Source of the DNA: Psammoneis japonica
Lineage: Eukaryota
Assembly: GCA_008632985.1 (NCBI GenBank)
Contig: QPGO01000249.1
Location: 59,476-79,475, forward strand
Direction of reading: 5' to 3'
Length of the DNA: 20,000 nucleotides
Under the pieces are notes generated by a model that was given only the letters and a program-made list of their open reading frames with translations, was not told the DNA's origin and did not search any database. Of the stretch, positions 564 through 20,000 are shown piece by piece (within the stretch, counting starts at the first letter, position 1; every line of letters starts with the position of its first letter). The position numbers and the translations under genes are program-made.

Positions 564-788
564 TATATAGCTCAATAAGTTTACGAATTACTCTTTTGCT
601 ATTTAGACTCTGGTTCAAAGCGTTTTTTGTGCTTTAGAATTCTTCGAGAAGAAGCTCACTGAGTTTTGAGGTTTGACGCGAATATCGTGCTTTCTTCGCA
701 CTGCAACGCAACCACAGACAACACGACCGGGAACCCGCGCGACAGCGAAGTCACGGATGAGATCCAAGATTCGATGTGTACCAAAGCT

Positions 789-806
789 TACGTAGAATTC
801 TACGTA
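789..806. promoter_or_regulatory. Perfect 18-bp palindrome TACGTAGAATTCTACGTA in the divergent intergenic region between the MGC gene and SIT
   Basis: The sequence is its own reverse complement and contains two TACGTA (ACGT-core) half-sites. A regulatory role is inferred only. Confidence 0.4.
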
Positions 807-963
807 TAATACACACCTACTTATATGAATATACGATAAAATTTTGATCTGTCGTCACCCATCGTGCGTTGGCGCGCCCTCGCTTCTCGCCCGTAACGGC
901 AATGCGCAATGCGCAACGGCATTTTCAGAATACCTAAAAAAATTGAAAGAGCAAACACGGACC

Positions 964-2541
964 ATGGTAGTGGGTCCTTCTTGCGCCAAGACCGGCAATG
1001 CCTTCAAGTGTATCTATTCAACAGCACTGCTGATCCTTGCGGTTTCAGTCACTCTGGCTACAATCTTTGATGAGAATACGCAGCTTTCCAGGGACGTACA
1101 TCCAGTATTCGCCTTTGTCATGATTTGGCTCGCCGTCCTTTGGCTTTCCATGGTAGAAGGTGGACAAGCCCCTTTGGTTGGATTGCCACCAGTTGACAAG
1201 GAACTTTACAGGAAGAGCCATCCTATTACGCACACGTGCGCGTCGGTGGCTCATAAGGGCGACAACTTGGACCGATATTTGATTGGTAGACAGTTCCTGG
1301 TGATTTTGATTGTCTTTTTGACCAACTTGGCTGGCCGTCCTCTCCAAGTTGCACAAGTTCTGGGACTTCCCGACGTGATTCTACAAATATTCTTGGGATC
1401 CGGATTGGCCATGACATTGATGACGGCCAATATTGGGCAACTGGCCTCTCAAGTGAACGCGTCCCGATGCATGCTGGACTATATCAACACCTATTTCATG
1501 GTTTTTACTCTTTACGTGGCAATGGCCATTGAAGCTTCTGGTTTGTTGCATTCTGTCTACTTTGTGCAAATGTGCTTTGCTAAGCTTTCCGGCAAGAAAT
1601 TCAAGTCCAAAGAACCACCCCGAGGAGACTTTCAAAACATGTTCTTTTTCGGACGAATATATTTTTCCTTGGCCGTGCTGGGCTTTTGCTTTGCAGTCAC
1701 CCTCAAGGCTATCATTGATGGAAAAACAACCATGCGGGACGGCGTCCCCAAGGCTGTCTTGGTTGTTTTATTTTTTGTCCTCATGTCAATAGTTGGTATG
1801 TTAGAGGGTATGCAGATTGCATTCTTTGCTGTCGCCAAGCTCTCCAAGGACGAGCAGCACCAACATCCAGTGGCCATGAAGACATGCGACTTGTTGTTCA
1901 AGGGTGAAGGACGAAATTTGCCGGGATTTATGATTGGACGACAAATCTGCGTCACAATGTGTTTCTTATTTATTGCTCGAATTACCACAATCAATGTGGA
2001 CGTGGATGCTGGTGAAGAGACGATATTCGGTGTATCCGCAGGCTTGCAGCAATTCTTCAACACCGGACTCCCAGGAGCTATCATTACAACCATTGTGGCA
2101 TCACTATCATGGCAGCTGGTAGCTTCCTCTTTTCCTGTAGCCTTTTTGTCCAATCCCTTGGTCTACGTCCTTCTTCGAATTTGCCTCGCTCTCGACGCCA
2201 CCGGCATTTGCTCAGCCTCACGGGTCCTTGCCTGGATGCACAAGCGTCTGGTTGGCTTTCAAAAGGATGAAGTGTACATTGGGACACCGGGAGAACGAGC
2301 CGCCGCGAACCATCAAGATGACGAACAAGCACTGGATGTCAATCCGGGACATTTTTTCCCAGGAGTACCAACCTTGCCCAGATCCGTCACAAGGTACCAA
2401 GGGTATATAATTATCACCCTTGACAAGGTACCCACGGAACAATCGCAGCTGGCTGTCCGTCTTGATGAAGATCTATTTCCTATTTCCGACACAAGACGAG
2501 CACAGCACTATAATGCAACTGGTTCTACCGAACGTACCTAA
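964..2541 (+). CDS. SIT: Diatom silicon (silicic acid) transporter, SIT family
   Basis: Four GXQ motifs (EGGQ, GRQ, EGMQ, GRQ), the CMLD motif, KGDNLDRYLIGRQF, GQLASQVNA and multiple hydrophobic TM segments. The first in-frame ATG is at 964; the ORF-track start at 844 is a TTG. Confidence 0.95.
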   Translation: MVVGPSCAKTGNAFKCIYSTALLILAVSVTLATIFDENTQLSRDVHPVFAFVMIWLAVLWLSMVEGGQAPLVGLPPVDKELYRKSHPITHTCASVAHKGDNLDRYLIGRQFLVILIVFLTNLAGRPLQVAQVLGLPDVILQIFLGSGLAMTLMTANIGQLASQVNASRCMLDYINTYFMVFTLYVAMAIEASGLLHSVYFVQMCFAKLSGKKFKSKEPPRGDFQNMFFFGRIYFSLAVLGFCFAVTLKAIIDGKTTMRDGVPKAVLVVLFFVLMSIVGMLEGMQIAFFAVAKLSKDEQHQHPVAMKTCDLLFKGEGRNLPGFMIGRQICVTMCFLFIARITTINVDVDAGEETIFGVSAGLQQFFNTGLPGAIITTIVASLSWQLVASSFPVAFLSNPLVYVLLRICLALDATGICSASRVLAWMHKRLVGFQKDEVYIGTPGERAAANHQDDEQALDVNPGHFFPGVPTLPRSVTRYQGYIIITLDKVPTEQSQLAVRLDEDLFPISDTRRAQHYNATGSTERT

Positions 2542-3015
2542 GCTGCTGCACATTCTCAGCATTGATTTGTTGTTTTTACTGCTATAATAGTAAAGATTCA
2601 CTTTTGAGCTACACATTAATGACGTCCTCTTCGTTGTGGCAAGTAGTACCCAAATGATACCTTAAAAAAAATAGTCAAAGCTTGCGAATATGGTGATGAA
2701 ATGGTTCCGTACTTGCGTGTTGTTGTTGTTCGTCGGAAGTCGAGAAGAGTCTGTCACGTGAGCAAGGAAGCGCGCAAAGAAATCCCTTTTTCAAAGATAA
2801 GAAACAGAAGCAGGTACCAAGAGCCTGGCACTAGAAATACAATGGCCAAGGAATGATAACAAAGAGAATCAATATTATGCAATTTTTAATGTATCCAACG
2901 ATAACCCAATCGATTCAAGCTTTTAGCACAGTACACAATCGCATACAATATATCGCAACCGCCCCCATAGGAACAACGATCCCGCACATAAATAGGTGTA
3001 AAAAGGAACCAAGTA

Positions 3016-4092
3016 CTACAAATCGTCTTCTTCTTCTTCTTCGTCTTCTTCCTTCAGCCACTTAAAGAATCTCCCCAAGGCGCGAAGGGGCAATCCAATT
3101 GCACTAGTCATGACGCTAAAGTTCCACATTACATGTGATCCCACCGAGGCTGCAAACCCAACATCCTCAAAGACCGGCGTAAAGACACGAATCGAAACGA
3201 TAAATGCCGCATAACATTGGGCTACGGCAGCAGAAGCCACAGTCAAGGCCTTGACAACGCTCTCGGCATCCGTCACGATGGACGCCTCGAGAGGACGTAT
3301 CCAATTGATCAAATGAGCAAAACCAAACACTAAACTCGATAGAACTGCCCAGAGTGATAAATCTTGTCGCTTTTCTTGGAGTGAGGAGCGATAGGTTGAA
3401 CTTGGCCTTCGCTGTACAACCTTCTTAATCGCATTCATGATGCCTTTCCGAAAGATTAATTCCTCCACAATGGGTGCAATGAACAAGACTTGGAAGAAAT
3501 AAATAAAGGACTGGAAGAAAGAAGTATCGCCCATTATACTCCTCCCTCCCGTGATCATAAGGCTGCCTCCCGATAGACCAACAGAACCTGGTAGCGGCAG
3601 GAAAGACACCGGCTTGTACATCAACATACCCATCGAGGCGAGAGATTCGGTCACTCGATCCACAACGTTGATTCCGAGTTCAGGAGAGAATGCGTAGGTA
3701 ACAGCAAATATGCCGGCACACATTAGCACGCCCAGAGCTGCTCGTCCGTAAATGCTCCAAAACAGATCCCAGAAGAAATGATTCACTACTCCTGCACCCG
3801 TCATGAAATCCTCCATGGCACTTCCCATTCCTCCTTCTCCACTGTCTTCGATTTCACTTAGCTGAGAAGCTCCAATCCTAGGAAAAGAGGCGATGGTATG
3901 CCTCTTGAACCCTGCTCTCGACTGGGGAACCGATCTTTGCATACCGGAAGGACTGACGACAAGTCGACCACTGCTCAATAACCCCAGCGATGGTTGAGTC
4001 GAAAAACCGTGAATCTTTTGACTCTGATGAAACAGAAAGAGGACGATCCAACAAAGTGTGACTGACACTCTTCCGGACGGGACTGCCACCAT
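3016..4092 (-). CDS. CPBP family (Rce1/Abi, CAAX protease type II-like) intramembrane metalloprotease with a probable bipartite plastid-targeting presequence
   Basis: Motifs APIVEELIFR (EExxxR), SSLVFGFAHL (FxxxH) and SHVMWNF (HxxxN). ATG at 4092. A hydrophobic signal ends in IHG-F and is followed by a Ser/Arg-rich transit-like stretch. Acidic C-terminal tail. Confidence 0.85.
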   Translation of the reverse strand: MVAVPSGRVSVTLCWIVLFLFHQSQKIHGFSTQPSLGLLSSGRLVVSPSGMQRSVPQSRAGFKRHTIASFPRIGASQLSEIEDSGEGGMGSAMEDFMTGAGVVNHFFWDLFWSIYGRAALGVLMCAGIFAVTYAFSPELGINVVDRVTESLASMGMLMYKPVSFLPLPGSVGLSGGSLMITGGRSIMGDTSFFQSFIYFFQVLFIAPIVEELIFRKGIMNAIKKVVQRRPSSTYRSSLQEKRQDLSLWAVLSSLVFGFAHLINWIRPLEASIVTDAESVVKALTVASAAVAQCYAAFIVSIRVFTPVFEDVGFAASVGSHVMWNFSVMTSAIGLPLRALGRFFKWLKEEDEEEEEDDL

Positions 4093-4251
4093 GGTTAGAC
4101 ACACAAAAAACGAAGTCACGATGCTTGGTGTCGATCTTGGCTTCGGTTCGATTAGCGAGGTGTGATGTTTGATGTGCGTTGATGTCGGTGGATACGGTAC
4201 GGCGTCGGACGCACAATCGCGATCACGCGATCCTCATCGCCAACGGATGAC

Positions 4252-4318
4252 TGACGTAGGCCAGAATCGAGAAAAGAATACGTCAGCGTATGGCATTTCT
4301 ACGGTAAGTGCCACGTCA
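4252..4318. promoter_or_regulatory. Cluster of three TGACGT/ACGTCA (CRE-like, bZIP-type) elements upstream of the CPBP gene
   Basis: TGACGT at 4252-4257, ACGTCA at 4280-4285 and ACGTCA at 4313-4318, lying 160-226 bp upstream of the ATG at 4092. Confidence 0.45.
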
Positions 4319-6299
4319 GCACTGGGAAAAATGAAAAATGAGTGGCGCTTTTTTGTGGATGATTTCGAGATTTTTTTTCGAGATTTCCGGTGTTTTTGAG
4401 GAAATCATGCAGCATTTTGTCGGAGGTGCTCCAAAGCTTGCTTCAGAAAAGTTCAGTGAGAACCCCCTTGGAAAATTGAGGCGATTTCATCATTTTTTGT
4501 CCTGGTGCCACTTGAGGGGTGCAGAGGAGCTCTCAGAAGCGTGTGAGAGACTGATGGCGTGGTGCATGCAAAAAGAGCACTCAAGCAGCTCTTGCAGCAC
4601 TGCAGTCTCTGGCAAGCTGTTCCCCCTGTGGCTTGACACTTCTGCAAGTGTGTGGCTGGGTTTTCAAAAGCTCAGAAGAAAAGTGTGCTCTTGCCCCTCC
4701 TCTCCTCTCTCACCATGTGTTTGAGAGGCACAACAAACAATGTTGACAGCAGCAGAGCTTTGCTGGCTTTCTCAGCTGTGAAACCATTTTTGAGGCTTGT
4801 CATTCAGCACAGGGTTTTTTTGTTGGCTGGCATGAAAGTTAAAAAGACCAAAAAGAGGCACGCACTGCTGCCCTCGTCACCCTCTGCATGTGGTGTGTGC
4901 ACTGTGTGCTGCTCAGCAACAAGGTGCTCATCTGGAATGCCAACAATCTGGGTCTGATCCCCGCCATCAAGGGTGTGTTTGATTTGCAGCCAGAAATTTT
5001 CTCTGTTCAATCCAAGACAATGCAGCCTTGACAAATCTGCACTCATGAACATTTGACAACAAAATGTCTCCATTCGTGCAGCCAACAATTTCTCTGCTGC
5101 GTGAGTGAGAGTGCAATGTTGTTTGTGTTCATGGCATTGCCCGAATGAAGTGCACCCCACTTTTCTGGATCCAAAACTCTTCAGTCATGCACCAAGTTGG
5201 ATTTTTCTTTCCTCCAAAATTTTTGCTCTCTGATGTTGCCATCCTTCTTTGTTTTGTTGCAAGAACACCTCAGCACTGCTCTTCTTCATTTGCTTTCAGC
5301 TTGTGAGCTTGCTTCATGCTGATTGCTTGCTGTGCTGGGGCTGGGGGATTGATGTTTGCATTGGGTGCACTCTTTTCAGTTTGTTGTTGTGCTCACATTT
5401 GTCTGTCATGCTTCATTGGTGATGCAGTCAGATGGTCTTGTGTGCCCTCATTGCAAATGGTCTTGGTTTGGTTCTGAGTGTGGTCTTCATCATCATCTTG
5501 CCACTGACTGTGTGTCATTTCCCTTGGTCCAACCAAGTCTTTTAGTTGTCCACATTGTGGACAGTGCAGTTTTGAGAATTAGAAAATCAGGCAGAGCATT
5601 GCCTTTCACATTGCTGTGCCACTTCCGCTGTTCTTCCTTCTCCTGGAACACAGCAGCACTCAAGAACTGACACATCCTGCCTGTTTGGTCAGACAAATTT
5701 GGTTGCTTCACTTTCTTGGGATGCTGCTGTCTCTGTTGCCTCTGTTGGGTCCACCCCCAACTGACCAAAATGTTCTTGTTGCCAAGCTCCTTTTTCAAAC
5801 AATGCCTGGCATCTCCAGAAGCATGCACCCTGCAGTGAAAGGGAGGATGCTTCCATGTGTGATGCTCTGCTGCTGTCACGTCCACTTCCATTGCTGCAAT
5901 TTCCCCTCCAGATGATGACACAGCTGGTGATTCACCAGGACTGGCAGGAGGCAATCTTGCCCTTTGTTGGGATTTTGACATTCCTCTGGTGCACTCATGC
6001 TGAAGCGCCGCACCCATGGCTTGCCTGTTGCACCTTTGTTGATGGCCTGGTGTTGTGATCAACTTCATCAAAACAAAGTGGTGAGAACAGCTCACAAAGA
6101 GCATGCCAAAAAGCAACTTGATTTGACAAAGCCTCCCACTGCAGCTGATGTGGCAATGAAGCAACTTCTGGAGCTGTTTCCCAACACCCTTTTTCCCTGC
6201 ACTGCAACTGTGATGCTCAAGCACAACAATCCAATCCATCAACAGAAGAACGGCCCCAAATGCCATCATTCCCCACCTTTCCCAGTTTTCAATTTCACA

Positions 6300-7560
6300 C
6301 CAAGACTCTGCAGGATCTCTTCACACAGAGCCCATTTTTCATGATCTTTCAAAGTTGCTGGCAAACCCAAATGACGTTTGGCCACCACATGTTCTTCCTC
6401 CCAGGGACAGTGATTTAGATTCTGATGCACCCCCTGGTGGTGGCAACAATTGATTCCCAAATTGTCCTGATGACTGGCAATTGTTGACTCAAAGTCAAGA
6501 TGCAGGAGATGGACAGTGGCTCCAAAGTTGTTTGAATGCTCAGGAAACTGTGCCCGACGTTCATGTTCACCTTTTTAATTGTTCTAACAAGACTGGCATT
6601 GATGCAGTCAATCCACATGGGATGGAGCCCCCCATGCACTCACTTGCCTTGATTCAAGAAGGTGCTCATTGGGATCACCATTGTTGCTGGCATCCTCTCC
6701 AGTTCATTCTAAATGTGGACAAGCAAGACAAAAAGGACAATTCTGGGTGTGCCTTGTCATTGACGATTGCTGCAGCATTCTGAAGTTGGGGCTTCATGGA
6801 CTGCTTTGTTGCCTGGGGACAATCCACCCATTGCCCACTCAATCATTGGAGCTGAGTGCCTGCATGTGAGAGCCAAAACACATCGCAACTCCCTGTTGGG
6901 TGACATCCTCAATCAAGAGCAAATGTTTGTTGCAGAGTCATGAGCTGAAACAAGATGGAGCAATTGTTGCACAATTGCCATGTGCCCTCATGCCTTGTGG
7001 ATGATCCTCTTCATGCTTGCAAGTTTTTCAACCAAGCTTTCATCAAGTCACTCACTGTTTCCATGCCCGGTCCTGATCCCAACAATGACAACAGCCACTG
7101 GCATCAGTTTTTGAAACAAGCACCATGCCATGACAGCCCAAAAGAAGGCAGAAAACAAGCTTTCTGCTTCCCTCCATTGGCAAATGAAAATGTGTTCCAA
7201 AATGCCAAGGCAAGCATTTGGTCAGCATGCTGTTGACAATGCCCACTTTCCCAATGATGTTGGTGATGACTGTCTCTGACATGATGCACATGAGACAGAG
7301 GCAGGCATCATCCCTCAAATCATGATGAAGGCAACAACTGGAGAAATGCACAACAAACACAAAGAGTTGTGTGACCGGACAACCTTGGAATTGTTCTGCA
7401 CAGCTTGGCATTGTCAAGTTATCAGAGGCTTGGCTGTCCACACTTGTGAGTGAATGGCGGTCTTTCCATCCTTGGCCAACTCACCAGTGATGAGAAGATG
7501 GGCAGGGTGATTGCCATGAAAGACAGTTGGCAAGGTTGGGTTTGGAAAAAGAAACCTTGG
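6300..7560 (+). pseudogene. Plavaka-type (CACTA/EnSpm-related) transposase relic with TGA stops and frameshifts
   Basis: Ordered motifs: NPNDVWPP, GDGQW, LFN(C/Y)SNKTGID...GMEPPM.SLALI (DKT..D...EP-like, ~6586-6650), LLGDILNQEQM, C.V....DDP...C, VDNA(H/Y)F..D.G, DMMH/EAGII (7278-7312) and GLSILGQLTSDEKMG (~7460-7503). This order matches my recollection of Plavaka transposases; not searched. Confidence 0.65.
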
Positions 7561-7859
7561 TGGGTGCAGCAGGTCCCACCTTTGTTTTTGATGCCAGGAC
7601 ATTGCACCTTGCCTTGTCAAATAAAACAGAGTCAGATTGGAAGAACGCCGCATCTCTGATCCACAAAATTTTGAGCCAGTCTCCATGCAGCATGTTGTGG
7701 CTGGGATTGAGAGTGTGAATGCCGGTGTCATCACTTGGCAGTCATCATGTTCAGCAGTGATTTGATGACAGTTGCAATGTGCCACAGGAGACATCAAACA
7801 ATGTAGAAGGCATGTTTTGCATTTAAAGGATTTTGGCTGCAAAGGACACAAACAGTCAA

Positions 7860-8530
7860 TTCATGTGAAGCAAGAATTTGCAGAATTTGCACCAAATTGC
7901 AGCAACAACATTTGCCAGCTGAGGTTGAGAACCACCACACACCTCACCACAACTCACATTTGACTTGCTTGACATTTTCATTTGTTGTGGAGTGCCTTGG
8001 CTCAACAATGCCATCTCTTCTTTTTGTGTGCTTGTGAAGAAGATGTTTGTCAACCCCACCACACCACAACCACAAAACATCCTTCTGCCAGACACCAATT
8101 TGTCAAGATCTCCTCCAGCCAAACAATTTTGTGTTGTGTTGTTGTCGAACAGCATCCATCCATTGCAGTTGTCAAAAAACATCTTGGTGTTGATCTCACA
8201 ATGCAAGCCATGTGCAGCATCATGTTCATCAAGGAAGGGCTGGCTGATCAAAGTTGGACTCATGCCAGGTGTGTCAGGACAGATGCCAGCACACCAAACA
8301 CTGCCCAACTTGTGATCACGACAGTGCAGCTCAATGCTGCATGCCCAGCACAGGTGGCAACAAGCTGATGAGAAGCAACTGCAGAAATTGCCACAACCAC
8401 TGCCGGCATCAATGAGCATCATGTTGCTGGACCAAGTGGCACAAACAGGGTGGGGCGGCAAATGACCTCAGCAGCAAAGTCAAAATTTGCCATGCCTCCA
8501 TGTGACTCTGTGCACCACCAGCAGCAATGC
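7860..8530 (-). pseudogene. DOT1-like class I SAM-dependent (histone H3K79-type) methyltransferase relic, frameshifted near 8460
   Basis: TES(H/Y)GGMANFDFAAEVI (from 8511 downward) resembles DOT1L EVYGETSFDLVAQMI. After the frameshift come LIDAGSG(C/Y)GNF (motif I, cf. FVDLGSGVG), A(C/Y)SIEL (cf. YGVE) and KMFFDN(C/Y)N (cf. VIFVNNF). Confidence 0.6.
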
Positions 8531-9269
8531 AACCAAATTGATGTTTTCCTTCTGGGCATGTGATGGCAGCACAGGGAACACATGTTCAGGTGGCTGCAAT
8601 GGTTCATTGCAACAATGTCAACACAACACCAGCACCAGCTTCAAAGAGAATTTGCAATTTTGTGGCCAAGCGGATTGGCGAATGTGTGCAGATGCACATT
8701 TTTTCAATGATTGCAGTGTTCTCTTTGGACAATGCTCATGCCAGTTGGAGATGGAAGCATTGCATTTGTTTTGCCAATGAGATTGTGGCATGTTGGAAAC
8801 AGAAGGACATCAGAAAAGATGAGGAAACAAACAATTTGGTTGTGGGTGAAACTTTGTCTTGCAGGCCACAAAATTTGCAATGTGACAAAATGCACACATT
8901 TGCATGTTTGAGTTTCTCACAGTGGAGCACATTTCAGAACAGTGGAAGGATTGGAAAAGTTCAAATGTCAGGTGAGAAGCATGTTCACAAAATTGGTGCA
9001 GAGCCCTGTTTGAATGAATCTGTGAGACAAGCCAACAATGGCAATGTGGAGAAGATCACTTGCAAAGTGTGCTCATTTTGTGACTTGTCTTGTTGCAAAC
9101 CAGCAGGGATGATGCAAATGAACAAACACAAGTGCAGCCAATTGGAGCAGAAAAGCAGATGGAGGAAACAGTTCTTGTGGGAGTGACAGCACAAGATGGC
9201 AGGAGTGTGGCATCAAGTGGCAAGCCATGAAGAGGAAGGCTCAACAGATTGAGACACTGTCACTGACAT

Positions 9270-10270
9270 GTCTGAGTTGGCCTCTTTGGCATGCTTGACA
9301 GTGACCATGAGTCCTGTGCTTGTGGGCTTGTTGAGTGTGCAAATGAACAAACACAGGGAGTCGAGCCAGGTCCTCCAGTTCACAACGAGTGGCTCAAGTT
9401 CTGTTGTCACTCCTGCAGAGGGATTTCATGCAGTGGACAATGCTCCAGCAGTTGGCAAAAAACTGGTTGGGTGCATGTTGACAAAGGTTGTCAACAAATG
9501 TGTGTCAAGGAGGGCAGCACATGAAAATGGCACTGCAGGAGTTGAGAAGCATGGTGTCAGTGCTGGAAGCATTCTGGAATGGTGCATGCAAAGAGAAAAA
9601 AACTCAGCAGGAAGAGGAACAACACACAGGACAATGTCAGGAGCAGGATGACAGGTGAGCCACATGAATTCTGGCATGCAATGGTTGGTTGCTTGGACTG
9701 TCTGACAGATTGAGTGTGGATGCCATTGTTTGCATCTGTGCAGTTTTTGCTTTGGAGGGTTTGCTGGTGGAGTGCAAAGATTTGATCAAGGGATGAAGGG
9801 CTGACAAAGACACCTGTGCATGGTTCTTGGAAAATGCAGCAATGGCGGTGGTGGGCCAGGCACAGTTTGGCAGAAGCATGACTGACTTGCTCAAGGAGTG
9901 GCTGACCCCATCATCTGAGACCTTTGCCATTCTGGTGCACTGGAACTTCTGTGACAAGGTGGTTGGGTGGCAGGGCAGAAAAATTGGAGAAGGACAACAA
10001 CATTGCAAGGTGCAGAAAGCTGAAGGCAGAAGATGCGACAGATGATGCAAAGCACACTGCACAGGGAAGGGGGAAATCAGCAAAGTGGAGCCAAGGATGG
10101 AGCAAGGAGGGGATCCAGAAACACACAATGAGCTTTGCAAATGGGTGGAACAAGGCAGAGAGAACAACCAAGGTTTTTGAGTGTGGCTCAAGGAATGAAG
10201 GCAAGAGAAGGCTGGCTTGTCAAAGGAGGCCAGAAAGAAATGAAAGAGAAATGAGAAAAGGAAAGAGAGA
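9270..10270 (+). pseudogene. Decayed ORF of an uncharacterised, probably TE-associated protein family
   Basis: WLTPSSETFAILV(H/Y)WNF(C/Y)DK (~9899-9958), then in another frame AK(H/Y)T...GWSKEGIQK(H/Y) (~10047-10124), followed by a purine-rich charged tail. The pattern resembles TxSxEAF..N..D / KYT / GWSxEGI hypothetical proteins I recall from diatom repeats. Confidence 0.45.
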
Positions 10271-10821
10271 GAGAGGATGGGTGGGATGTGCACATGGGAG
10301 AGGAACTGCCCTTGCAGCCAATGGCTGCTGGCAATGGCACAGAAGGAGTTGCAGCAATGGTGACAAACCAAGCTGGGGGTGTGTGAACACAAATTGCAGC
10401 AAAGGACAACATCAACAACACAATGAAAACAACAAGGTGGCATGTGGTGCAATTTTTTGTCAAGAACAAATGACTGTTTAGAGAGTTGCTTTTAAAGCAA
10501 CAGTGCAAGAAAAAAAGTGTAGAAGGATGTTTCAAGCAGCAATGCTGGATTGCATGTGGCAAGAGATGCAATGAAGGAGTGACAAAATGCAAATGTTAAA
10601 AAGGGCTGACTTTGACATCACAGGCAAAAATGCCCATCGTGCAAAGTGGGTGCAATTTGGAATCAAGGAGCCTGTGAACTTCAACAGCTCTGATCTGACA
10701 TTAAAAGGAAGACCTGGCTCAACAAGAAACAACAATCTGGGGGTTGCAGTCAGGAAATGCCCAGATTCTGACAGGCTGTCAGACCCAGATTGTTGGCATC
10801 CCAGATGCTTGCCTTGCCACT

Positions 10822-12120
10822 CAGCCAATGAGAGGCAGTGATTGCCTTGTTGGGGCCAGCCAAAGCCAAGCAACATTTGGCCAACCCCACACAAGAATCT
10901 GTTTGCTTTCAGATTGCAGAGAGATTGTGAGCTCTTGTGCCAGCATGGTCTGCTGCAGTGTGCAGAAAACATGAGTGCATGATTGTGCTGTGTGCACCCT
11001 GCCTCCAACCTGTGCACATGGTGCGCCACTCTTTGTGACATGTCAAGAGGCAAGAGGCAAGAAGGTTGCATGTTGCAACATCAGCACTGGTGTCTTTTCC
11101 CAGTTTTGTCATGCACCGCCCCCATGGAGAGGACAGCACTGCCCTGCAGATGGCTTGCTGTTGATGATGGGGGCAATGACAGATGATGGGCTGCAGAAGC
11201 AGCCACAGCAGAGCACAGCCATGTGTCTTGTTGAAAAGTGGCAGGCCAGAACAGAAATGGACAGGGCCAGCCCAACAACTTCCATCCAAAGCTGCAGTGC
11301 CAGAAACTTTCACAAATGAATTCATGTGCTCACACTCAGACACCTCTCAGACCATGGTCTGTTCATCAGCCAGTTGGAGGATTCCCAAATTTGGGGGTGC
11401 CACAAACAACACCATGGGTGTCTTTGTTCTTGTTTTTTTTTTCAGCTGTGGAGACATTTTTGAGGCTGGGGCGCAAGGTTTTGCAGATGGCACAAAAGCT
11501 GCCAAGAGCAAAACAAGGTGTTTGCTGTTGCCCTTGTCACCCTCCATGTGTGGCTGTGCACTCCTGCTCAGGGCAACAAAATGCCCGCCACCTCGTCCTC
11601 AGCAGCAGCAGCACACACACAGCTGCTGGTGGGCTGCACACACCATCATGATGCCCTCACGCAGCCAATGAAAGGCAGTGATTGCTTCATTGGGTCCAGC
11701 CAAAGCCAAGCAATGTTCTGCCAACCCCACACACAAAAAATGTTTTGCTGAAAGATTGTTGTTGCAGCCAGAGATGGCAAGCTCTTCTGCCAGCATGCTG
11801 ACCCGCCACGGTTTGTAGAAAATGAGTGCATCATCACAGTGTGCCCTTCAAGCTGTGCACATGGTGCACCACTCTTTGTGGTGTGCTGGTCAAGAGGCAA
11901 GAAGATTGCAAATCACAACATCAGCACTGGGGCCCTCTTTTCCCAGCTTCTTTGTCATGGCTGGCTGCAGACCATGGCGCTTGCTGTTCAGGAGGAGGAG
12001 GAGGAGCAATGGCACAGAGGGCAGCCACATGTCTCATTGAAAAGTGGTGGGCCAGAAAAACACAGACAGGGCCAACCCAACAACTTCCAACAAATCTGCA
12101 GTGCCAAAAACTTGCAAACG
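10822..12120 (+). repeat. Two diverged direct repeats of ~460-500 bp (copy 1 ~10822-11318, copy 2 ~11662-12120)
   Basis: Shared colinear blocks: CAGCCAATGA.AGGCAGTGATTGC, CCAGCCAAAGCCAAGCAA, CCAACCCCACACA, TGTGCACATGGTGC.CCACTCTTTGTG, CAAGAGGCAAGAAG.TTGCA, CAACATCAGCACTGG, TTGAAAAGTGG, ACAGGGCCA.CCCAACAACTTCCA and CTGCAGTGCCA.AAACTT. The offset is ~840 bp at the start. Confidence 0.9.
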
Positions 12121-13011
12121 CTGTGTGTGCAGGCCTTTGTGCCTTGTCCTCCCCTGGGCAGCAAGAAAAGAAGGAAGGAGACCAAGAAAAATGCTCCAGC
12201 AAAATCAACAGAAACATCTGACGGGCATTTTTTGACTTGTGGGCCACAACTTTGCACCTCAATCACAGATGCACAATGGTGCCACACCTCTGGAGAGGGG
12301 CCTTCAAAGTGTGCAAGGGGGGGACGAGCTTCTGTGTGGACAGAGCACGGTGCTCTGCACCATGCTCTGCACAGCAGCTGCCAGACAGATGGCTGGGAAA
12401 GTGGCTGTCTGTCATTTTTGAAGGATTCTCACTGCTCTGATAACCAGGTCATTGCAATTGCATTTGCTGCAGTGATTGCAATTGTTGATTGCAGTCCATT
12501 CTCGTCTCCGCGCAGAGAGCAATCGCATCAGGACCGGGCAATTGCCAATGATGTTCTCCCTCCAACCTTCAACAGGCCGTTTTGCGGAATCCGCTCGCAC
12601 GCGATAGTGCTGTTCAAATGCCTTTTAGAATCAATGTACATGTGTATCTTTATTATATTACTCTAAACTATGTATAAATATTTATATGTCCGTTTATCCG
12701 TTGCGCCAAACGTGCGTCCAGTGGTCGTACAGAATGTACTGCAACCTGCCGTGTGACAGAGAGAGCCTCTGCACCTCAACATCCACACTCCAAACTCCAA
12801 ACCCAAACATCAGAGACTCCTCATCGTATCGCGAATCACGACAAACAACCTACCGTGTATCGCAACAAATCACCGTCGTCGAAAGCCATTGCACTGATCC
12901 TTCACTTTCCAGAGCTCTTGACCTACGACTTTATATAGCGATAGATCTCATTTTTTCATTGGTCCTATCGATACCGTGCCAAGATAGAGTTTCAGGGCCG
13001 ATTGAAACGCA

Positions 13012-15129
13012 ATGGCAAGCACTGTCTCGAGCAGCGTGAATTGGGCCGACGACGATGAGCAAAGGCGACCTCAAGGGAATCATAATGAGTATTATGATGT
13101 GGAGTCGGTTGCATCAGGAGAAACTTCATCTCCGTTTACTCCTGTCTCTCGACAGTTGGCATCGTATTACCATTCATATGCCCATTCACACGCCCATTCA
13201 CAGTTTCATTTTCCTGAAGAACATTGGTCGGCTGCCGATGCAAGGCCAATACTGCCAATAGCTGCTTTTTTTATGGGCGATTTGAGGGATGGTATTCCCA
13301 TGGTACGAGATTTCTAGCCGTTTACAACTTTTGTTGGCTATACATGAAGAATCATCCTCTCACACATTGCTCGTTGTTTCTGTACATAGTTGAATATGCA
13401 AGCTGCGTTCTTGATCTCGGCAAAAGATTTCTCGCAGAAGCAGGTGGGCATTCTTTTTCTTGTTTTCGGCATTTCTCAGTTTGTCTGCCTGGCTCCTGCT
13501 GGGTATTTTCTAGATTATACGCGAGATAAAATCAAGTGGGTTAACTTTGCAGGGATTGCCTGCGCCGCTCTGACGGTCTTTACGGTCATGACGGCTGCGG
13601 ATGACGGACGAAACATGGGACTCATGATATTTTGGAAAGTACTGCAAGGATCGGTCACCGCCCTCTTTCCAACTGGTTTCAATGGTGTAACACTGGGTAT
13701 TGTTGGGAGCACTGGATTCTCCAAGCAAGTGTCAAGAAATCGCGTCATGACACACATTGGCACGGCGCTGGTGGTCGCCTGTGGTTCGATACTCGCGTAT
13801 TTGCTCTATCCAAATATCGGAGTCCTATTTGTTGTCAGTCCACTTTTTGCGCTTTTCTTTGTCCATCACATGAGACGAATAAGACCCACAGATGTAAACC
13901 CAGAGGCGGCGAGTGCACTCATCGTGGAATCGCCAACCATGACGGAATACGAGTGCATGGATGATATTGACGAGCACGAAGACATTTGGGGCATCACAAG
14001 TGACCTGAGCATCGATTCAATGTCAACTACTGGTGACTCCTCACGGAAAAAGGAGCAGATCAGACCAGCTCCTTACGCACCGCCAGACGTAGTGGGCGTT
14101 CGCACTGAAAAATCCGCCTCGGAACTGTCACCAAAGGCAGATCCTAGCAGACCAAATGAAATACCAAACCCCACACATCTCGGGCGACAACAAACGGCGT
14201 CATCCACTGCCACACCGTCTAGTGATGCATCACAGTCTGCTGGAACGTGGAGTGTACCAAGTTTTAACTTTGGCTGGGGGCAGCGGAAAAGGCCTCCACC
14301 CGCCCCGTCTTGTCGGGCTGCTGACACGGCAATGGCAGATTTGAAGTCACGACGCCCGCACACTCCTCTCTCCGTCTTGGTAGATCCTATACTGTTGGTG
14401 TTTATCATCATTGTCTTTTCTTTCAATGTGGCAAATGGTTCCGTACTGCCTCTGGTGATGCAATCTCTCAAGGTTAAGGATGCGCAGACATCGATTTTGC
14501 TTTCCGGTCTGTGTATCCTTATTGCACAGGGTCCCATGGCATACTTTGCAAGACTTTGCGGTGATTTTTCGCCGGAATGGGGACGGAAGAAAATTACTCT
14601 TTGGGGCCTATTTGCTTTGACGGTTCGCTGTTTCCTACTTGCCTTTTTGTCATGGACAAAGAACAATTTAGTCCAAACTCTGTCGGGCCTATACGTGATT
14701 AAATCTTGCATTCTTGCGACGCAATTGCTGGATTCCATGGGCGCCGGTATCTTTGGGACCATGTACATTTTGGTCACGAGCGATATTTCTAGTGGAACAG
14801 GTCGTTTCTCACTCCTGCTGGGAATGACAACAAGTGCAATGTGCTTGGGGGGGACAGTGTCTGGGTATATTGGACAATCCCTGGCTCAAGATTATGGGTA
14901 CACTGAAGCTTTCTTCTGCCTTGGCGTCATGTCCTTGGCACCCTTTCTTATGTTTGCCGCGTTTATGCCGGAAACGCTTCCGCAGTACGCTAAAGCATTC
15001 ACACCCAAGCCAAAAGCTAGCAAAAACACGCCCAAGTATAGAGGAGAACAGGCTCAGGATGTTGTGTCTTCTGCTTCTCAAAGATTGGGCGGGAGGGATT
15101 CGGGGACGGCAATAATGGAGCTTGTCTAG
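13012..15129 (+). CDS. Major facilitator superfamily (MFS) transporter, 2 exons (13012-13302, 13390-15129), ~676 aa, with a long central hydrophilic loop
   Basis: Phase-0 GT-AG intron at 13303-13389 (GTACGA...CATAG) joins FFMGDLRDGIPM to LNMQAAFL. Motif PAGYFLDYTRDK. Two sets of hydrophobic TM helices are separated by a Ser/Pro-rich loop. Confidence 0.9.
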
Positions 15130-15571
15130 TCCTTATCGTTGGTGATTACCAGCATCGTGCTGAAGTACGTGTCAAACTGCATCTTCCTAGAGAATCCGTA
15201 CCCAATATGTGTCTCAAGGCGATTCTGACCCAAGACAAACGGCGAAGCCAAGAATGGAGCTACGTTTGGTTTTTGAAGTTCTGTGAAGAGAATGTCCTTT
15301 CGTCTCAGAATATAGTGGGATCGTCCAACACGGCCGGTTGAGTCTATGTGATCCGTCGGACAATCTAGCCATGGTTTGGTTGCTCGGCTATTGGCTCGGT
15401 GACACTCCGTTGAGACAATACATTCCTGGTATTTGAACGGAGAACGCAAATAATGCCAACGTCACCTCCAGAGGCATAACTACGAGTATTACAAAAAAGA
15501 GCGAGTAGTGATGTGTTGTGTCCGAAAAGTGGTCGCGTTGGATGCATGAGACGTACGCAGGGATTTCAAAG

Positions 15572-18450
15572 CTAGCTGCTCTGTGCTGATTGAATTATAC
15601 GAAAGAGATGTGGACCATTCTTCCCTACTAGCCTCATCCTATCAAGTAGCGATTTAAGACCTAAATCAATAAATACAGTCAACTTAAATATAGGCTCAAC
15701 TTCCGAAACAGACCCCAATTGACTGCTTCCTTCTCTAAGATTACCACCTGCTTCTTCTCCTAACCACAAAACGAAGAAGGCTCGCCGTACTTTTTGTGAA
15801 GGGGGCTCATACATTTTCTTGACCCACTCGACAGATCAATAGGTCAGGCTGTACTCATACAACCCAAATCGACCCGAGCAACGACAATATTGCTGATTTA
15901 AGTGTGAAACAGAGTACTTCTGTTTGTGTCTTCGTCTTCGTCATCTTGCTGGACATGGCTCCGAGAATGTAAATTCGAATGTGTCGTACGCCATTGATAT
16001 CTCATCGGAGAGCATCTCCAAAACTACAGGTTTGCAATGAAGCTGAAACCTGTACTCCAACCCGTTGGCTTCGAACCAGTACCTGAAACTCTTGACCTTA
16101 TTTTTATCACTATTTTGATGTCGTGACCTCTTTTCCAGATCATTTCTTTGCCATCAGGGACTGTTCCGATTCGTAGTGTCCTGTTTCCGCCAATAAAGAA
16201 ACCCTTTTCGTCCGGAACAAGTGCCTCGTGTGGTCGTACAGCTTTGTTCTTGATATCCCCTCCGGAAATGCTGTCGCTAGACCGTAGAAGAATGTTCTCG
16301 ATCAACTGCCATGCTTCAGAGAAAGATAGGACGCGTTCCATAAGAACAATCTTGTACCCCATCTCTTCGAGCTGTCGATGCACGTGATCGATGCGCCTTT
16401 CAAAGTGCACTCGCATTCGTTCATCTTTGTACATCCGCGAACCTTGCAATGAGTGTGAGTGTGCATTTGTCTTTTTCGAAATGAGAGCTTGTTCTACTGT
16501 AGCCCACCTCCACATCCACTGAGCCTGAACGTGCTCTGGCATTGCCTCTAGCTCCTCGGAAGACCTTGCACGGATTCTAGCGATCAATCAAAATCCTTTA
16601 TCTTTGAGATGAGTTTCAGCAATGCGTCGTGCTGTTCGGGGGTAAGCCGTTCCACATCCAAACGTTGCTTCAGCTCCATGAGCTCGTTTGTAGCCACGAC
16701 ACCTGTGGCGCCAAACGTCGATCGACTGTAACCGAGCCTCCAAAGATGCAATTTGTCTCTCTAGCTCGGGCATTGAAGCCCACTGAGGCAAGTTGCACAA
16801 AGGAACAAGGGCTTCGTACTCCGCTTTGGCGCGCGCAACAGCCAACATTACATCCGGATCTGTCACACCTCTGGCCGCCTCAATAAAGTCTTGCAATCTT
16901 CGTATTTCTCTATTTAGAGCTGCACTTGTTTGGAACTTCTCAGCACAATCCTTTCGAAACTGCTCTTGTCTGCTCTCTTCTTCTTGTCTCTTCTTTTCTT
17001 CTACAAGTCGCATCCTTCGCTCTTCTGCTCTCTGTTCTTCAAGCCGCAAGTGCACCACCTCCTCATCACGATGCCGCCATTGAGTTGCTTCCTGCTCTGG
17101 TTGTTGTCGCTTTGCCTCTTCCTCTCTCCACGATTGCTCTAGTGCCAGCAGCTCTCTTGCAATTTTGCGGATTGTTTTCTGTTGTCAGCACTTGCATTGG
17201 GTTTCTGTGGGGAAGCTCTTGCCACTGGCATGGTGGGAACACCCACAATTCCTTGCCTCTGTGCTTTCAAAATCAAAACCACTTGGGAATGGCCTTTTTG
17301 TTCGGCCATGTCTGGCGCACTCTGTTTGCGAAAGTGGTCAATGCTGTGATGGGCTTTGGCTCCATTGTCCAAAAGAATCTGGGCCACCTCTCCATGTGCC
17401 CATTCTTTGCTGCAGCCATGAGAGGCATCTGCCCTGCTTTGAAGCCTGTGCTCACTTTTGTGCCATGATCCATCAAGATTTTTGTGGCATCCACTTGTCC
17501 TTGTTCACTGGCGTGGCAATGCACAGTTGAGTGTTGAGCCATCACTGTTGACTGCATCCACATGTGTGCGGCATCGTCGAGGAGTCCCGCCAGCATCATT
17601 TTGTCACCCTTGACATTTGCAAAGTCATCATTCTTGCACAACCCGTTCTTGTTTTGCCTCCACTTGCTCTCCTGCAAACAAGAGTCACAAATGAAAAAAG
17701 TTGCACGAGAAACACTCGTTTTCATTTTTGTGAGTTGCAAAATCACACTGGCGTTTTGGTGGCAAAACTGAAAAAAGCAACACATGGTCAATTTTGGCAG
17801 AGGCACAGTGGATTTTGAGTCTCGTTCTTGTTTTGCTGTTCGCCAATGCCTGAATTTCACTTCTCAAATTGTTGGAAATGCCTGTGTTGCCATCCAAGTC
17901 CAATCACTTCAAACTCTCATTGTGTCATTGCAGCATTTGCAGCAACTCTCTTGCACCATCATCACCACCAGTTTGAGCCCATCCAATGCAGTGTTGGTTT
18001 CAAGTGCTGATGCAAGCGTTGTTGCGCTGTCATCACCAAATTGGTTGTTGCAAAGACCCAGCTGTTGCAAAGCAGTGTTCATTTCAAGTGCCCTCACAAG
18101 CACTTTTGTGCCATTGTCACCAATTTGGTTGTTGCCAAGATGGAGCTTTTGCAATGTTGTGTTGGTTTTGAGTGCCCTTGCAAGCACTCTTGCGCCACAG
18201 CCACCAATTTTGCTGTTGCCAAGATGCAGCTCTTTTAACATGGTGTTTGTTTTGAGTGCTGTTGCGAGCACTCTTCTTGTGCTGTTATTGTCACCAATTT
18301 GGTTGTTGCAAAGATGGAGCTTCTGCAATGTCGTGTTGGTTTCGAGTGCCGATGCAAGCTTTTTTGCATCAGCATCACCAACCCGGGCTCTGTTCAAGAT
18401 GGAGCACTGCCAATGTCAGGTCATTTCACCGCAGATGCCAGCAGGCCTCG
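15572..18450 (-). pseudogene. Disrupted multidomain gene: RNI-like LRRs (17909-18397), ankyrin repeats (~17270-17530), coiled coil (~16591-17184) and an unknown C-terminal region
   Basis: LRR units such as LKTNTTLQKLHLGNNQIGD; ankyrin motifs PLMAAAKNGH and A...GHSQVVLIL. ORFs 16588..17058 and 16024..16587 share one frame separated by a single TGA. Further in-frame TGAs occur at 17187-17185, 15943-15941 (inside an Arg run) and 15838-15836, with several frameshifts. Whether all parts formed a single gene is inferred. Confidence 0.65.
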
Positions 18451-18900
18451 TTGAGTTTCACACCACTGCTGCATGATCACAAAATCACATGTGACCCACC
18501 CACGCACAACAAAAAAAAGGGTGCTGAACCACAGTGCACAGAGTGGATCGTGCGCGAGTTGGGTTGCTTTCAACAAAAGCAAAAACGACAGTGAGTCATC
18601 CACCGTGGCTTCGTTCGTGCTTTTCCAAAAAAACTTTGGACTTCGGGTTTCAGATAATTGATGTCATGTTTGACTGTGGACACTCCAGTCATTCACAATG
18701 AAACAGCATGCAGACTGATGCTGTACAGCCAGACGTCCCAAGCAGATTTTTTTCTCGTTTTTTCCCATCGCATCGTGGCATGCCGGCAGGGCATGCTGTG
18801 CCGGAACCGGCAGGCCAGGGCCAATGATGCGGCACGCGCGACGGCGTTTGACACGCAAAGTCGTTCCAATCCAATCGTTCCAGCAGCTTCAGAAAGGCTT
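17145..18900. other. Second TpA/CpG-depleted hypermutated block
   Basis: Only ~4 TA dinucleotides seen between 17142 and 18905 (near 18236, 18286, 18654 and 18724). LRR codons show Y->H, Y->C and T->M changes. Confidence 0.8.
17950..18400 (-). repeat. ~84-bp-period tandem DNA repeats encoding 28-aa LRR units
   Basis: Recurrent + strand strings TCACCAA(A/T)TTGGTTGTTGC near 18033, 18117 and 18291 (a diverged unit near 18202), and GTGTTGGTTT..AGTGC. Confidence 0.85.
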
Positions 18901-19071
18901 GCATGTTAAATGTACCGTAGTGCTGTTTATCACTGGGTAGGTTTGGTTTGCAGAGACTCAAAGTATCAGCATCGGCACTTCATTTCAGTTGCAGAAAGCA
19001 GAAAGTGACGATTTTTCAACTGGTGACGCCGCAGCACTTACTCTCAACCGCTAAAACATAATATACATCCC

Positions 19072-19932: not shown

Positions 19933-20000
19933 ATTTTTGCTCTAAGTTAAAATAATCTGCAAAGACCTGTTTTCCCTAGTTCAATTCCCACCACTGTCTT

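What the first reader, a model, noticed from the sequence alone, without database searches (positions are those of the whole stretch)
4310..12600. Targeted TpA->TpG/CpA hypermutation of repeat DNA (a 'reverse-RIP' signature) on top of CpG decay
Seen: about 18 TA dinucleotides in ~8 kb, where several hundred would be expected, while flanking genes have abundant TA. CG is also depleted and TG/CA is in excess. Tyr and TAA/TAG codons nearly vanish in all six frames. Established: CpG->TpG loss is expected from 5mC (diatom TEs are CG-methylated), and fungal RIP creates TA rather than removing it. 5mC deamination cannot remove TA. Inference: a second process mutates A->G at TpA on either strand, restricted to silenced or repeated DNA. 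Candidates are error-prone Pol eta-type patch repair (WA hotspot, as in somatic hypermutation) triggered by T:G mismatches, or adenine modification/deamination. I do not know of a described genome-defence system with this spectrum.
Basis: partly seen in the sequence, partly recalled or inferred. Interest (0 to 1): 0.9.

Follow-up and report, generated by a model that had tools for sequence, protein, structure and literature searches.

The report
TpA-erasing hypermutation blocks in a diatom
Two stretches of a diatom chromosome have had almost every TA step turned into TG or CA, the mark of a targeted DNA-mutating process so far reported only once, in an unrelated alga.

Summary
Block A (4306-12604) has 18 TA where 350 are expected at the flank rate, and 66 CG where 441 are expected. 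TG+CA rises by the amount lost, so the changes are transitions inside pyrimidine-purine steps. A second block (16916-18906, a dead LRR-ankyrin gene copy) has lost TA but only half its CG. At the four block edges TA is gone while CG is normal, so TA loss does not depend on CpG decay.

The changes look mutational and made in place. Twelve of 14 adjacent double transitions between two internal copies are TG versus CA. One TG/CA difference separates the window from a near-identical read contig. Paralogous contigs carry CG or TA where block B has CA or TG.

A 2026 preprint measured the same TpA-to-TpG/CpA hypermutation in integrated viruses of Bigelowiella natans.

I read this as a new member of that kind, seen in a diatom at saturation. 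The leftover TAs are mostly YTAR, which points to a wider sequence preference. The enzyme and the origin of block A remain unknown, and no genome was held for a genome-wide test.

The parts
4306..12604 (.). Block A: TA-free, CG-poor, TG/CA-rich domain, mostly multi-copy DNA of unknown origin
   Evidence: TA 18 (350 expected), CG 66 (441 expected), TG 965, CA 954. Summed contig depth 135-683 over 4670-11339 against about 62 in the flanks. No Pfam family in any of the six frames.
4306..4560 (.). Left edge of block A: TA gone, CG normal, single-copy depth
   Evidence: TA 0 (10.7 expected), CG 9 (13.5 expected). Depth 62 in bin 4003-4669.
12500..12604 (.). Right edge of block A: TA gone, CG normal or high
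   Evidence: TA 0 (4.4 expected), CG 11 (5.5 expected).
10780..11360 (+). Internal repeat, copy 1
   Evidence: About 70% identical to 11620-12180. Of 14 adjacent double transitions between the copies, 12 are TG versus CA; 5.5 double transitions of all types were expected.
11620..12180 (+). Internal repeat, copy 2
   Evidence: Same evidence as copy 1.
4634..4635 (.). TG in the window, CA in the near-identical read contig of X1
   Evidence: Rows 4634 T>C and 4635 G>A, both in record 1, which has 8 other letters over 1-5044.
16916..18906 (.). Block B: TA-free domain with CG only half depleted
   Evidence: TA 6 (83.8 expected), CG 58 (105.8 expected), TG 219, CA 210.
17273..18415 (-). LRR_6 plus ankyrin reading frame broken by TGA stops, without Tyr (a pseudogene of a host gene family)
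   Evidence: Pfam LRR_6 E 2.7e-8, Ank_2 E 0.0019. Y 0 of 381 residues; C, W, M and Q raised. Only generic LRR relatives found. All 4 difference rows shown in this block put CG, TA, CG, CG in paralogous contigs where the window has CA, TG, CA, TG.
18725..18906 (.). Right edge of block B, upstream of the intact LRR gene: TA gone, CG high
   Evidence: TA 0 (7.6 expected), CG 16 (9.6 expected).
16916..17170 (.). Left edge of block B, lying inside a repeated gene-like unit
   Evidence: TA 2 (10.7 expected), CG 9 (13.5 expected). A paralogous contig (record 14) aligns over 16644-17010, across the edge.

Best explanation
Both blocks are products of a mutation process that works on chromosomal DNA in place, inside a bounded domain. 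It converts TpA to TpG or CpA, that is A to G on one strand or the other. Each site is hit independently, and the process runs until almost no TpA is left. This is the signature measured directly in Bigelowiella natans.

In the interior of the domain a separate and slower process removes CpG. This is most likely deamination of 5-methylcytosine at methylated CpG. The TpA process reaches 100-350 nt further out than the CpG-poor core.

The surviving TpA are mostly YTAR and never RTAY. I infer that the targeted A is hit fastest when a pyrimidine follows it (T-A-Y), so sites with no such strand last longest.

Shown: the composition, the transition-only balance, the independence from CpG loss, and the TG/CA differences between copies. 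Inferred: that an enzyme does this (an adenine deaminase acting on DNA, or a thymine-modifying route giving T to C), that silent chromatin or small RNA guides it, and that it serves as a defence.
For: 1. Size of the effect: TA 18 against 350 expected and 6 against 84 expected.
2. Transitions only: YpR per base is 0.2414 in block A and 0.2407 in flanks, and the gain in TG+CA (0.0859) equals the loss of TA+CG (0.0852).
3. Either strand, site by site: runs test on the TG/CA order gives z -0.57, and heterogeneity over 200-nt bins gives P 0.32.
4. After duplication and in place: 12 of 14 adjacent double transitions between the two internal copies are TG versus CA. There is one TG/CA difference against a contig that differs from the window at 8 of 5044 positions. 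All 4 difference rows shown inside block B give CG or TA in paralogous contigs.
5. Independent of CpG decay: the pooled edges have TA 2 against 33.4 expected and CG 45 against 42.2 expected. Block B keeps 55% of its CG and 7% of its TA.
6. Positional rather than bound to one element: a paralogous contig aligns across the 16916 edge, and the first 360 nt or so of block A are at single-copy depth.
7. Precedent: in B. natans, 230 of 231 new mutations in two integrated viral regions were A>G or T>C. All of these GC-biased mutations fell on TpA. The genome also holds clusters of TpA-poor, CpA+TpG-rich windows (10.64898/2026.01.13.699255, Results read).
8. Wider context: residual TA are YTAR in 12 of 18 cases against 62 of 409 in flanks (P 1e-6). 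RTAY is 0 of 18 against 151 of 409.
Against: No unmutated progenitor copy was recovered, so no copy-versus-consensus spectrum could be tabulated. In the core, TG/CA that came from TA cannot be told from TG/CA that came from CG.

The difference table showed only 40 rows; a further 1318 were not shown. The '4 of 4' and the single allelic TG/CA site are therefore small samples chosen by the tool.

The TG-versus-CA excess between copies would also arise from CpG decay alone. Run X1 may be the sample the window was assembled from.

The repeated stretch 16024-16915 is not mutated, so what selects a domain is unknown. No enzyme, base modification or chromatin data could be examined, and no whole genome was held. 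Sharing a signature with B. natans does not prove a shared mechanism.
Confidence: 0.7

Rival explanations
1. A single enzyme makes both changes. An ADAT2-like deaminase that can act on both A and C in DNA would convert TpA to TpG and CpG to TpG, breaking both self-complementary YpR steps. No separate methylation-driven decay would then be needed.
For: Both losses occur in the same blocks and both end in TG/CA. The B. natans preprint cites an amphioxus ADAT2 reported to edit both A and C in DNA (Results read; the cited paper itself was not read).
Against: The two losses are uncoupled in space and in degree. The edges have lost TA but not CG, and block B keeps 55% of its CG and 7% of its TA. The B. 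natans mutations were almost only at A:T, with 1 of 211 otherwise, and the preprint text does not contain the word CpG. Diatom repeats are reported to be CpG-methylated (PMC5124317, passages), which by itself predicts CpG decay.
Confidence: 0.1
2. The DNA was edited before it arrived. A mobile element's RNA or cDNA was hyper-edited by an ADAR-like or other deaminase and then integrated, so the blocks are insertions that were already TA-free.
For: The TA edges are sharp to within a few bases. Block A is multi-copy, and the loose-end sequences of other copies that one search shows are also TA-free.
Against: TG-versus-CA differences between the two adjacent internal copies, and against the near-identical contig, need independent hits after duplication or divergence. 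The block B edge at 16916 lies inside a unit that paralogous contigs align across. The edges of block A are at single-copy depth. Loss is confined to TpA and is near total, while AA is not depleted (o/e 1.21); promiscuous dsRNA editing would lower A more generally (recalled knowledge). No reverse transcriptase or integrase was found in any frame.
Confidence: 0.07
3. One reading: T:G mismatches from 5mC deamination recruit error-prone patch repair (Pol eta, WA hotspots), which mutates A at TpA.
For: TA loss and CG loss occur in the same blocks.
Against: TA loss is complete where CG is untouched (edges: TA 2 against 33 expected, CG 45 against 42 expected). AA, the other WA motif, is not depleted (o/e 1.21-1.46). 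The YpR total is conserved, so the transversions that Pol eta also makes at A:T (recalled knowledge) are not visible. There is no strand patchiness.
Confidence: 0.05
4. The composition is intrinsic. The blocks are foreign or viral DNA, or a repeat family, that was always written without TA and CG.
For: No homologue or Pfam family was found for block A. The other copies glimpsed are TA-free too.
Against: Block B is a member of a host LRR family whose paralogous contigs carry CG or TA at the compared sites, and its frame has 0 Tyr in 381 residues plus TGA stops. There are TG/CA alternations between copies. YpR frequency is identical to the flanks. The long open frames of block A are no longer than in shuffled sequence (maximum 284 codons; 95th percentile of shuffles 300).
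Confidence: 0.05
5. Sequencing or assembly artefact, for example modified bases misread by a basecaller.
For: The library type of run X1 is not on record, and X1 may be the source of the assembly.
Against: Contigs built directly from reads at depth about 62 reach 315 kb, and one 12.6-kb contig crosses the left junction. They match parts of block A with 0 differences (records 3 and 5). Error-prone reads would not give such contigs. The copies differ from each other in ordinary ways as well (65 transversions in the internal pair).
Confidence: 0.03

Closest known systems
TpA-targeted hypermutation of integrated NCLDV and virophage DNA in Bigelowiella natans (Mettrop et al., bioRxiv 10.64898/2026.01.13.699255; outline, Results and Discussion read)
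   Same: The changes are only A>G and T>C at TpA, giving TpG or CpA according to strand. They are confined to bounded regions. The long-term trace is TpA-poor, CpA+TpG-rich clusters, many of them without annotation. The enzyme is unknown; the preprint proposes an ADAT2-like adenine deaminase.
   Different: The host here is a diatom (stramenopile) and not a chlorarachniophyte (rhizarian). Depletion here is at saturation (o/e 0.03), while the active B. natans NCLDV region is at Rho 0.45. One target here is a host-type LRR-ankyrin pseudogene, and no viral or transposon domain could be recognised. CpG decay is superimposed here, which the preprint does not mention. An extended YTAR/RTAY context is inferred here and not discussed there. 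No direct rate measurement exists here.
Repeat-induced point mutation (RIP) of fungi
   Same: It works like RIP in outline: transition-only hypermutation of selected DNA in place. It ruins reading frames, copies diverge independently, and it seems to leak into adjacent unique DNA.
   Different: RIP makes C>T, mostly at CpA, and so creates TpA. Here TpA is destroyed. Dependence on repeats is not shown: a repeated neighbour is spared and single-copy-depth edges are hit. Diatom DNMT4 is related to fungal RID (PMC9998398, passages), but nothing links it to A>G changes.
CpG decay of methylated repeats by 5-methylcytosine deamination
   Same: It explains the CG>TG/CA loss in the cores of the blocks. 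Diatom repeats are reported as CpG-methylated in block-like domains (PMC5124317 passages; PMC9998398 abstract).
   Different: It cannot remove TpA. The CG-poor interval is narrower than the TA-free interval.
ADAR or APOBEC editing of viruses and retroelements in animals
   Same: Deamination is used as a mutagenic defence. ADAR favours a U before the edited A, as cited in the preprint's Discussion.
   Different: Those enzymes act on RNA or single-stranded DNA, give strand-clustered changes and have looser context. Here the hits are site-by-site on either strand, strictly at TpA, near 100%, and on chromosomal DNA.
Pol eta phase of somatic hypermutation (WA hotspots)
   Same: A>G changes at TA.
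   Different: AA is spared, no transversion signal is seen, there is no strand bias, and no link to CpG sites was found.

Membership tests
B. natans-type TpA hypermutation | Changes are A>G/T>C transitions that fall on TpA and give TpG or CpA | tested here: met
   Inferred from composition, not from observed new mutations. TA is at 5-7% of the flank rate, the YpR total is unchanged, and the TG+CA gain equals the TA+CG loss. The edges lose TA with CG intact. One paralogue row shows TA where the window has TG.
B. natans-type TpA hypermutation | Confined to bounded genomic regions while the rest of the genome is normal | tested here: met
   Two blocks with edges sharp to a few bases; flanking genes have TA o/e 0.61. 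Only 20 kb could be examined.
B. natans-type TpA hypermutation | Targets are foreign DNA (integrated viruses, transposons) | tested here: inconclusive
   Block A is multi-copy, but no Pfam family, homologue or viral relative was found. Block B is a host-type LRR-ankyrin pseudogene.
B. natans-type TpA hypermutation | Mutation rate in the region is measurably raised (about 1000-fold) and the process is ongoing | not testable with these tools
   The only hint is one TG/CA difference against a contig about 0.2% diverged from the window.
Fungal RIP | C>T at CpA (or another CpN), raising TpA | tested here: not met
   TpA is nearly eliminated and CpA is doubled.
Fungal RIP | Triggered by sequence duplication | tested here: inconclusive
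   Block A is mostly multi-copy. However, the repeated stretch 16024-16915 is TA-normal and the block A edges are at single-copy depth.
5mC-driven CpG decay | Loss of CG to TG/CA in methylated DNA, with no effect on TA | tested here: met
   Met for the cores only: CG 46 against about 456 expected from base composition in 4561-12499. It does not account for the TA loss. Methylation itself is not testable here.
ADAR-type hyperediting fixed by retrotransposition | Promiscuous A>G in strand-wise clusters with general loss of A | tested here: not met
   A is 26.8% of block A, AA o/e is 1.21, and TG and CA are interleaved at random.
Pol eta / somatic-hypermutation-like repair | WA (AA and TA) hotspots with mixed substitutions at A:T | tested here: not met
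   AA is not depleted and YpR is conserved.

The most novel reading that the evidence does not exclude
A TpA-specific, domain-restricted DNA hypermutation system is shared by diatoms and chlorarachniophytes, and so may be old and widespread in the SAR supergroup. It runs to saturation on silenced DNA, including dead copies of host genes. It spreads a few hundred bases into unique flanks, works independently of cytosine methylation, and prefers RTAY over YTAR. On this reading its enzyme is a still unidentified eukaryotic activity on double-stranded DNA (an adenine deaminase or a thymine modifier) that acts as a genome defence running opposite to fungal RIP.
Probability: 0.45. Interest if true: 0.85.

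Novelty: new member of a known kind. Interest (0 to 1): 0.66.

Why it matters
TpA-targeted hypermutation has so far rested on one preprint in one rhizarian alga. A saturated example in a diatom would show that the process is not a peculiarity of that species. It would give a simple genome-scan signature: TA-free blocks with doubled TG/CA and unchanged YpR. It would also move the search for the enzyme into a group with many genomes, methylomes and genetic tools.

The window adds three points that can be tested directly. TA loss is independent of CpG methylation decay and reaches further out. Host pseudogenes are targets, not only viruses. The residual sites suggest a T-A-Y preference.

There is a practical side as well. 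Such blocks create long false open reading frames without Tyr, because TAA and TAG are absent, and they hide the ancestry of repeats from homology searches.

Tried and rejected
- Whole genome: none is held for this window. The genome-wide scan, the copy-versus-consensus spectrum and the search for DNMT5, Pol eta or deaminase genes could therefore not be done.
- Origin of block A. Pfam on 20 ORFs and on all six read-through frames gave no credible family; the best was DUF6069 at E 0.24. The word-indexed search with the 284-aa ORF gave 0 hits. The exhaustive HMMER search gave 1 hit at E 2.8e-5, which was a match to an internally repetitive protein and was rejected. A viral-contig search with the 274-aa ORF gave 0 hits. 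Rfam gave 0 matches. Tandem repeats were found only outside block A or in the LRR array. ORF lengths in block A are not clearly above shuffles.
- Other copies elsewhere. A YR-degenerate 34-mer from the highest-copy part found 0 loci in metagenome contigs and 0 in viral contigs. The silicon transporter found no related locus in metagenome contigs.
- Tyr-to-Cys/His test on close paralogues of block B: only generic LRR proteins at 26-52% identity over the LRR part were found, so it was not possible. The neighbouring intact LRR gene is too diverged for a codon-level comparison.
- Species: the best silicon-transporter relatives are 72% identical and unnamed. Named ones are diatoms and one bolidophyte.
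- Expression: no RNA holder was listed. Run X2 gave no depth in the bins from 4003 to 12006 and only 3.23 in bin 12007-12673, but its kind is not on record, so nothing is concluded.
- Strand patches that would mark a processive single-strand deaminase: none found.
- Earlier notes of this scan: none for this genome or sequence. The one 'TpA depletion' note concerns a phage island and does not bear on this case.
- Literature: no paper in the held library reports TpA loss or TpA hypermutation in diatoms. Only the B. natans preprint describes this spectrum.

Full report
WHAT IS THERE. The window is nuclear DNA of a diatom or a very close silicifying relative. The flanks encode a silicon transporter (829-2541 +, Pfam Silic_transp, E 1e-202), an Rce1-like protease (3016-4233 -), an MFS transporter (13390-15129 +) and an LRR_6 protein (19027-19932 +). 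The transporter's best relatives are 72% identical and unnamed. Named relatives are diatoms, and a bolidophyte comes in at 47%.

Positions 4310-12600 hold 18 TA, 64 CG, 964 TG and 954 CA. With edges set by the nearest flanking TA, block A is 4306-12604. It has TA 18 against 349.6 expected at the flank rate and CG 66 against 441.1 expected. No Tyr codon survives in any of the six frames.

It has TA 6 against 83.8 expected and CG 58 against 105.8 expected.

THE SEQUENCE IS IN THE READS. One run (X1) holds 93% of the sampled words of block A. Its contigs are built from reads at depth about 62 and reach 315 kb. One of 12.6 kb crosses the left junction (1-5044, 8 other letters). Two cover 9178-9950 and 11222-12311 with no difference. 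X1 may come from the sample that was assembled, so this support is not fully independent. It does rule out an error introduced by the assembler, and it makes a basecalling artefact unlikely.

Summed contig depth rises from about 62 in the flanks to 135-683 over 4670-11339. Most of block A is therefore multi-copy at 80% likeness or more. The loose-end sequences that one search shows beside block A (places 6500-12482) are also free of TA.

THE LOSS IS BY TRANSITIONS WITHIN PYRIMIDINE-PURINE STEPS. YpR steps per base are 0.2407 in the flanks, 0.2414 in block A and 0.2477 in block B. In block A the gain in TG+CA (0.0859 per base) equals the loss of TA+CG (0.0852). AA and TT are not depleted. TG and CA are interleaved at random (runs test z -0.57; heterogeneity over 200-nt bins P 0.32). 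Each site was therefore resolved on one strand or the other independently, with no sign of a processive single-strand enzyme.

TA LOSS AND CG LOSS ARE TWO PROCESSES. At the four block edges (4306-4560, 12500-12604, 16916-17170, 18725-18906; 793 nt pooled) TA is 2 against 33.4 expected, while CG is 45 against 42.2 expected. Block B as a whole keeps 55% of the flank-rate CG but only 7% of the TA. From that I infer that TpA is lost at least about four times faster per site than CpG there.

The spared AA and the missing transversion signal speak against it as well. The CG-poor core fits ordinary decay of methylated CpG. Diatom methylation is reported as mainly CpG and concentrated on repeats in block-like domains (PMC5124317, passages; PMC9998398, abstract and passages).

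THE CHANGES HAPPENED IN PLACE, AFTER DUPLICATION.
(a) Two adjacent copies inside block A (about 10780-11360 and 11620-12180, about 70% identical) differ by 55 transitions and 65 transversions. Of 14 adjacent double transitions, 12 are TG opposite CA, against 5.5 double transitions of all kinds expected. Independent resolution of an ancestral TA or CG in each copy gives exactly this.
(b) The near-identical X1 contig reads CA where the window reads TG at 4634-4635. That site was therefore still TA or CG when the two versions, about 0.2% apart, split.
(c) All 4 difference rows that one search shows inside block B put CG, TA, CG, CG in paralogous contigs where the window has CA, TG, CA, TG.
(d) A paralogous contig aligns over 16644-17010, across the left edge of block B. 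The first 360 nt or so of block A lie at single-copy depth. The domain is therefore positional and not simply an insertion that arrived already mutated.

Two caveats apply. One search printed only 40 difference rows; a further 1318 were not shown. Points (a) and (b) would also follow from CpG decay alone.

WHAT THE BLOCKS WERE. Block B carries, on the minus strand, one frame with LRR_6 repeats and an ankyrin repeat. The frame is interrupted by TGA, has 0 Tyr in 381 residues, and has raised Cys, Trp, Met and Gln. It is a dead member of a host gene family, and only generic LRR relatives were found.

Block A could not be identified. There was no Pfam family in six frames and no real homologue of its longest frame in two protein searches. 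Nothing was found in viral or metagenome contigs, and there was no Rfam match. Its long open frames are largely a by-product of the missing TAA and TAG. The longest is 284 codons against a 95th percentile of 300 in shuffles, although 5 frames of 200 codons or more compare with 1.3 expected.

AN EXTENDED CONTEXT. Of the 18 TA left in block A, 12 are YTAR and none is RTAY. In the flanks 62 of 409 are YTAR and 151 of 409 are RTAY (P 1e-6). Against the contexts of the block's own TG/CA steps, which is the right baseline if the residual TA were new back-mutations, P is 5e-5. YTAR is the only class with no pyrimidine after the A on either strand. I infer that the process favours T-A-Y. In block B the 6 residual TA are mixed, with 2 YTAR.

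COMPARISON WITH WHAT IS KNOWN. Seven full-text searches found one report of this spectrum, bioRxiv 10.64898/2026.01.13.699255 (outline, Results and Discussion read). In mutation-accumulation lines of Bigelowiella natans, 231 of 302 nuclear point mutations fell in an integrated giant-virus region and a virophage region. Of those 231, 230 were A>G or T>C, and all of these GC-biased mutations were at TpA. The rate was about 1000 times the background, and only some lines were affected.

That genome also has 124 clusters of TpA-poor, CpA+TpG-rich 1-kb windows and 324 predicted genes with TpA frequency 0.0018, enriched for reverse transcriptase and DDE domains. The authors propose an ADAT2-like adenine deaminase but do not show it. 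The text does not contain the words diatom, stramenopile, CpG or trinucleotide.

From their numbers I calculate about 1e-5 per TpA per generation (211 mutations, 6169 TpA, 3132 generations). That gives a half-life of roughly 6e4 generations, fast enough to explain saturation here while CpG decay is still incomplete.

Fungal RIP works in a similar way (in-place transition hypermutation of selected DNA), but it creates TpA, and its repeat trigger is not evident here. ADAR-type editing and Pol eta fail on the points listed in the membership table.

VERDICT. The reading that a second, TpA-directed mutational process acts on selected DNA is supported. The proposed Pol eta mechanism is not supported, and the claim that nothing like it has been described has been overtaken by the 2026 preprint.

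I file this as a new member of that kind, in a diatom. Four features are not in the preprint: saturation, decoupled CpG decay in the core, a host pseudogene as a target, and a YTAR/RTAY context effect. The enzyme, the signal that defines a domain, the genome-wide extent and the identity of block A all remain open, because no genome, methylome or further copies could be reached.

Noticed in passing
window 12605-12614 and 18918-18927: The exact 10-mer TAGTGCTGTT occurs only twice in the window, both times just outside the right edge of a TA-free block. With one mismatch there are 7 matches against 1.44 expected. The core GTGCTG also lies within 40 nt of both left edges in the opposite orientation (4317, 16941). 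This is a post hoc observation. It could be chance, a shared promoter motif or a boundary element.
   Followed up: partly
window 16024-16915: A gene-like stretch on the minus strand directly continues block B. It is repeated in the genome (contig depth about 370, paralogous contigs about 85% identical) yet has normal TA (30) and CG (51). Being repeated is therefore not enough to be hit.
   Followed up: partly
window 10479-10702: Five of the 18 residual TA of block A cluster in 224 nt, inside the part with the highest copy depth (bin 10006-10672, depth 683). This may be a younger or less exposed segment.
   Followed up: no
window 829-2541: An intact, intron-free silicon transporter gene (570 codons from stop to stop). 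Its best relatives in the protein collection are only 72% identical, so the species is not closely represented there.
   Followed up: partly
window 12605-12700: A very TA-rich stretch directly abuts the TA-free block A. One search lists 16 TA between 12605 and 12695. This shows how abrupt the boundary is.
   Followed up: no
window 17984-18359: An 84-nt tandem array (4.4 copies, 73% matches) corresponds to the 28-residue LRR_6 repeats of the dead gene in block B.
   Followed up: yes
window 4003-12673 (run X2): Run X2 (kind not on record) gives depth over parts of the flanks and over 14675-20000, none in the bins from 4003 to 12006, and 3.23 in bin 12007-12673. If it were RNA this would fit a silent block A, but nothing can be concluded.
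   Followed up: no
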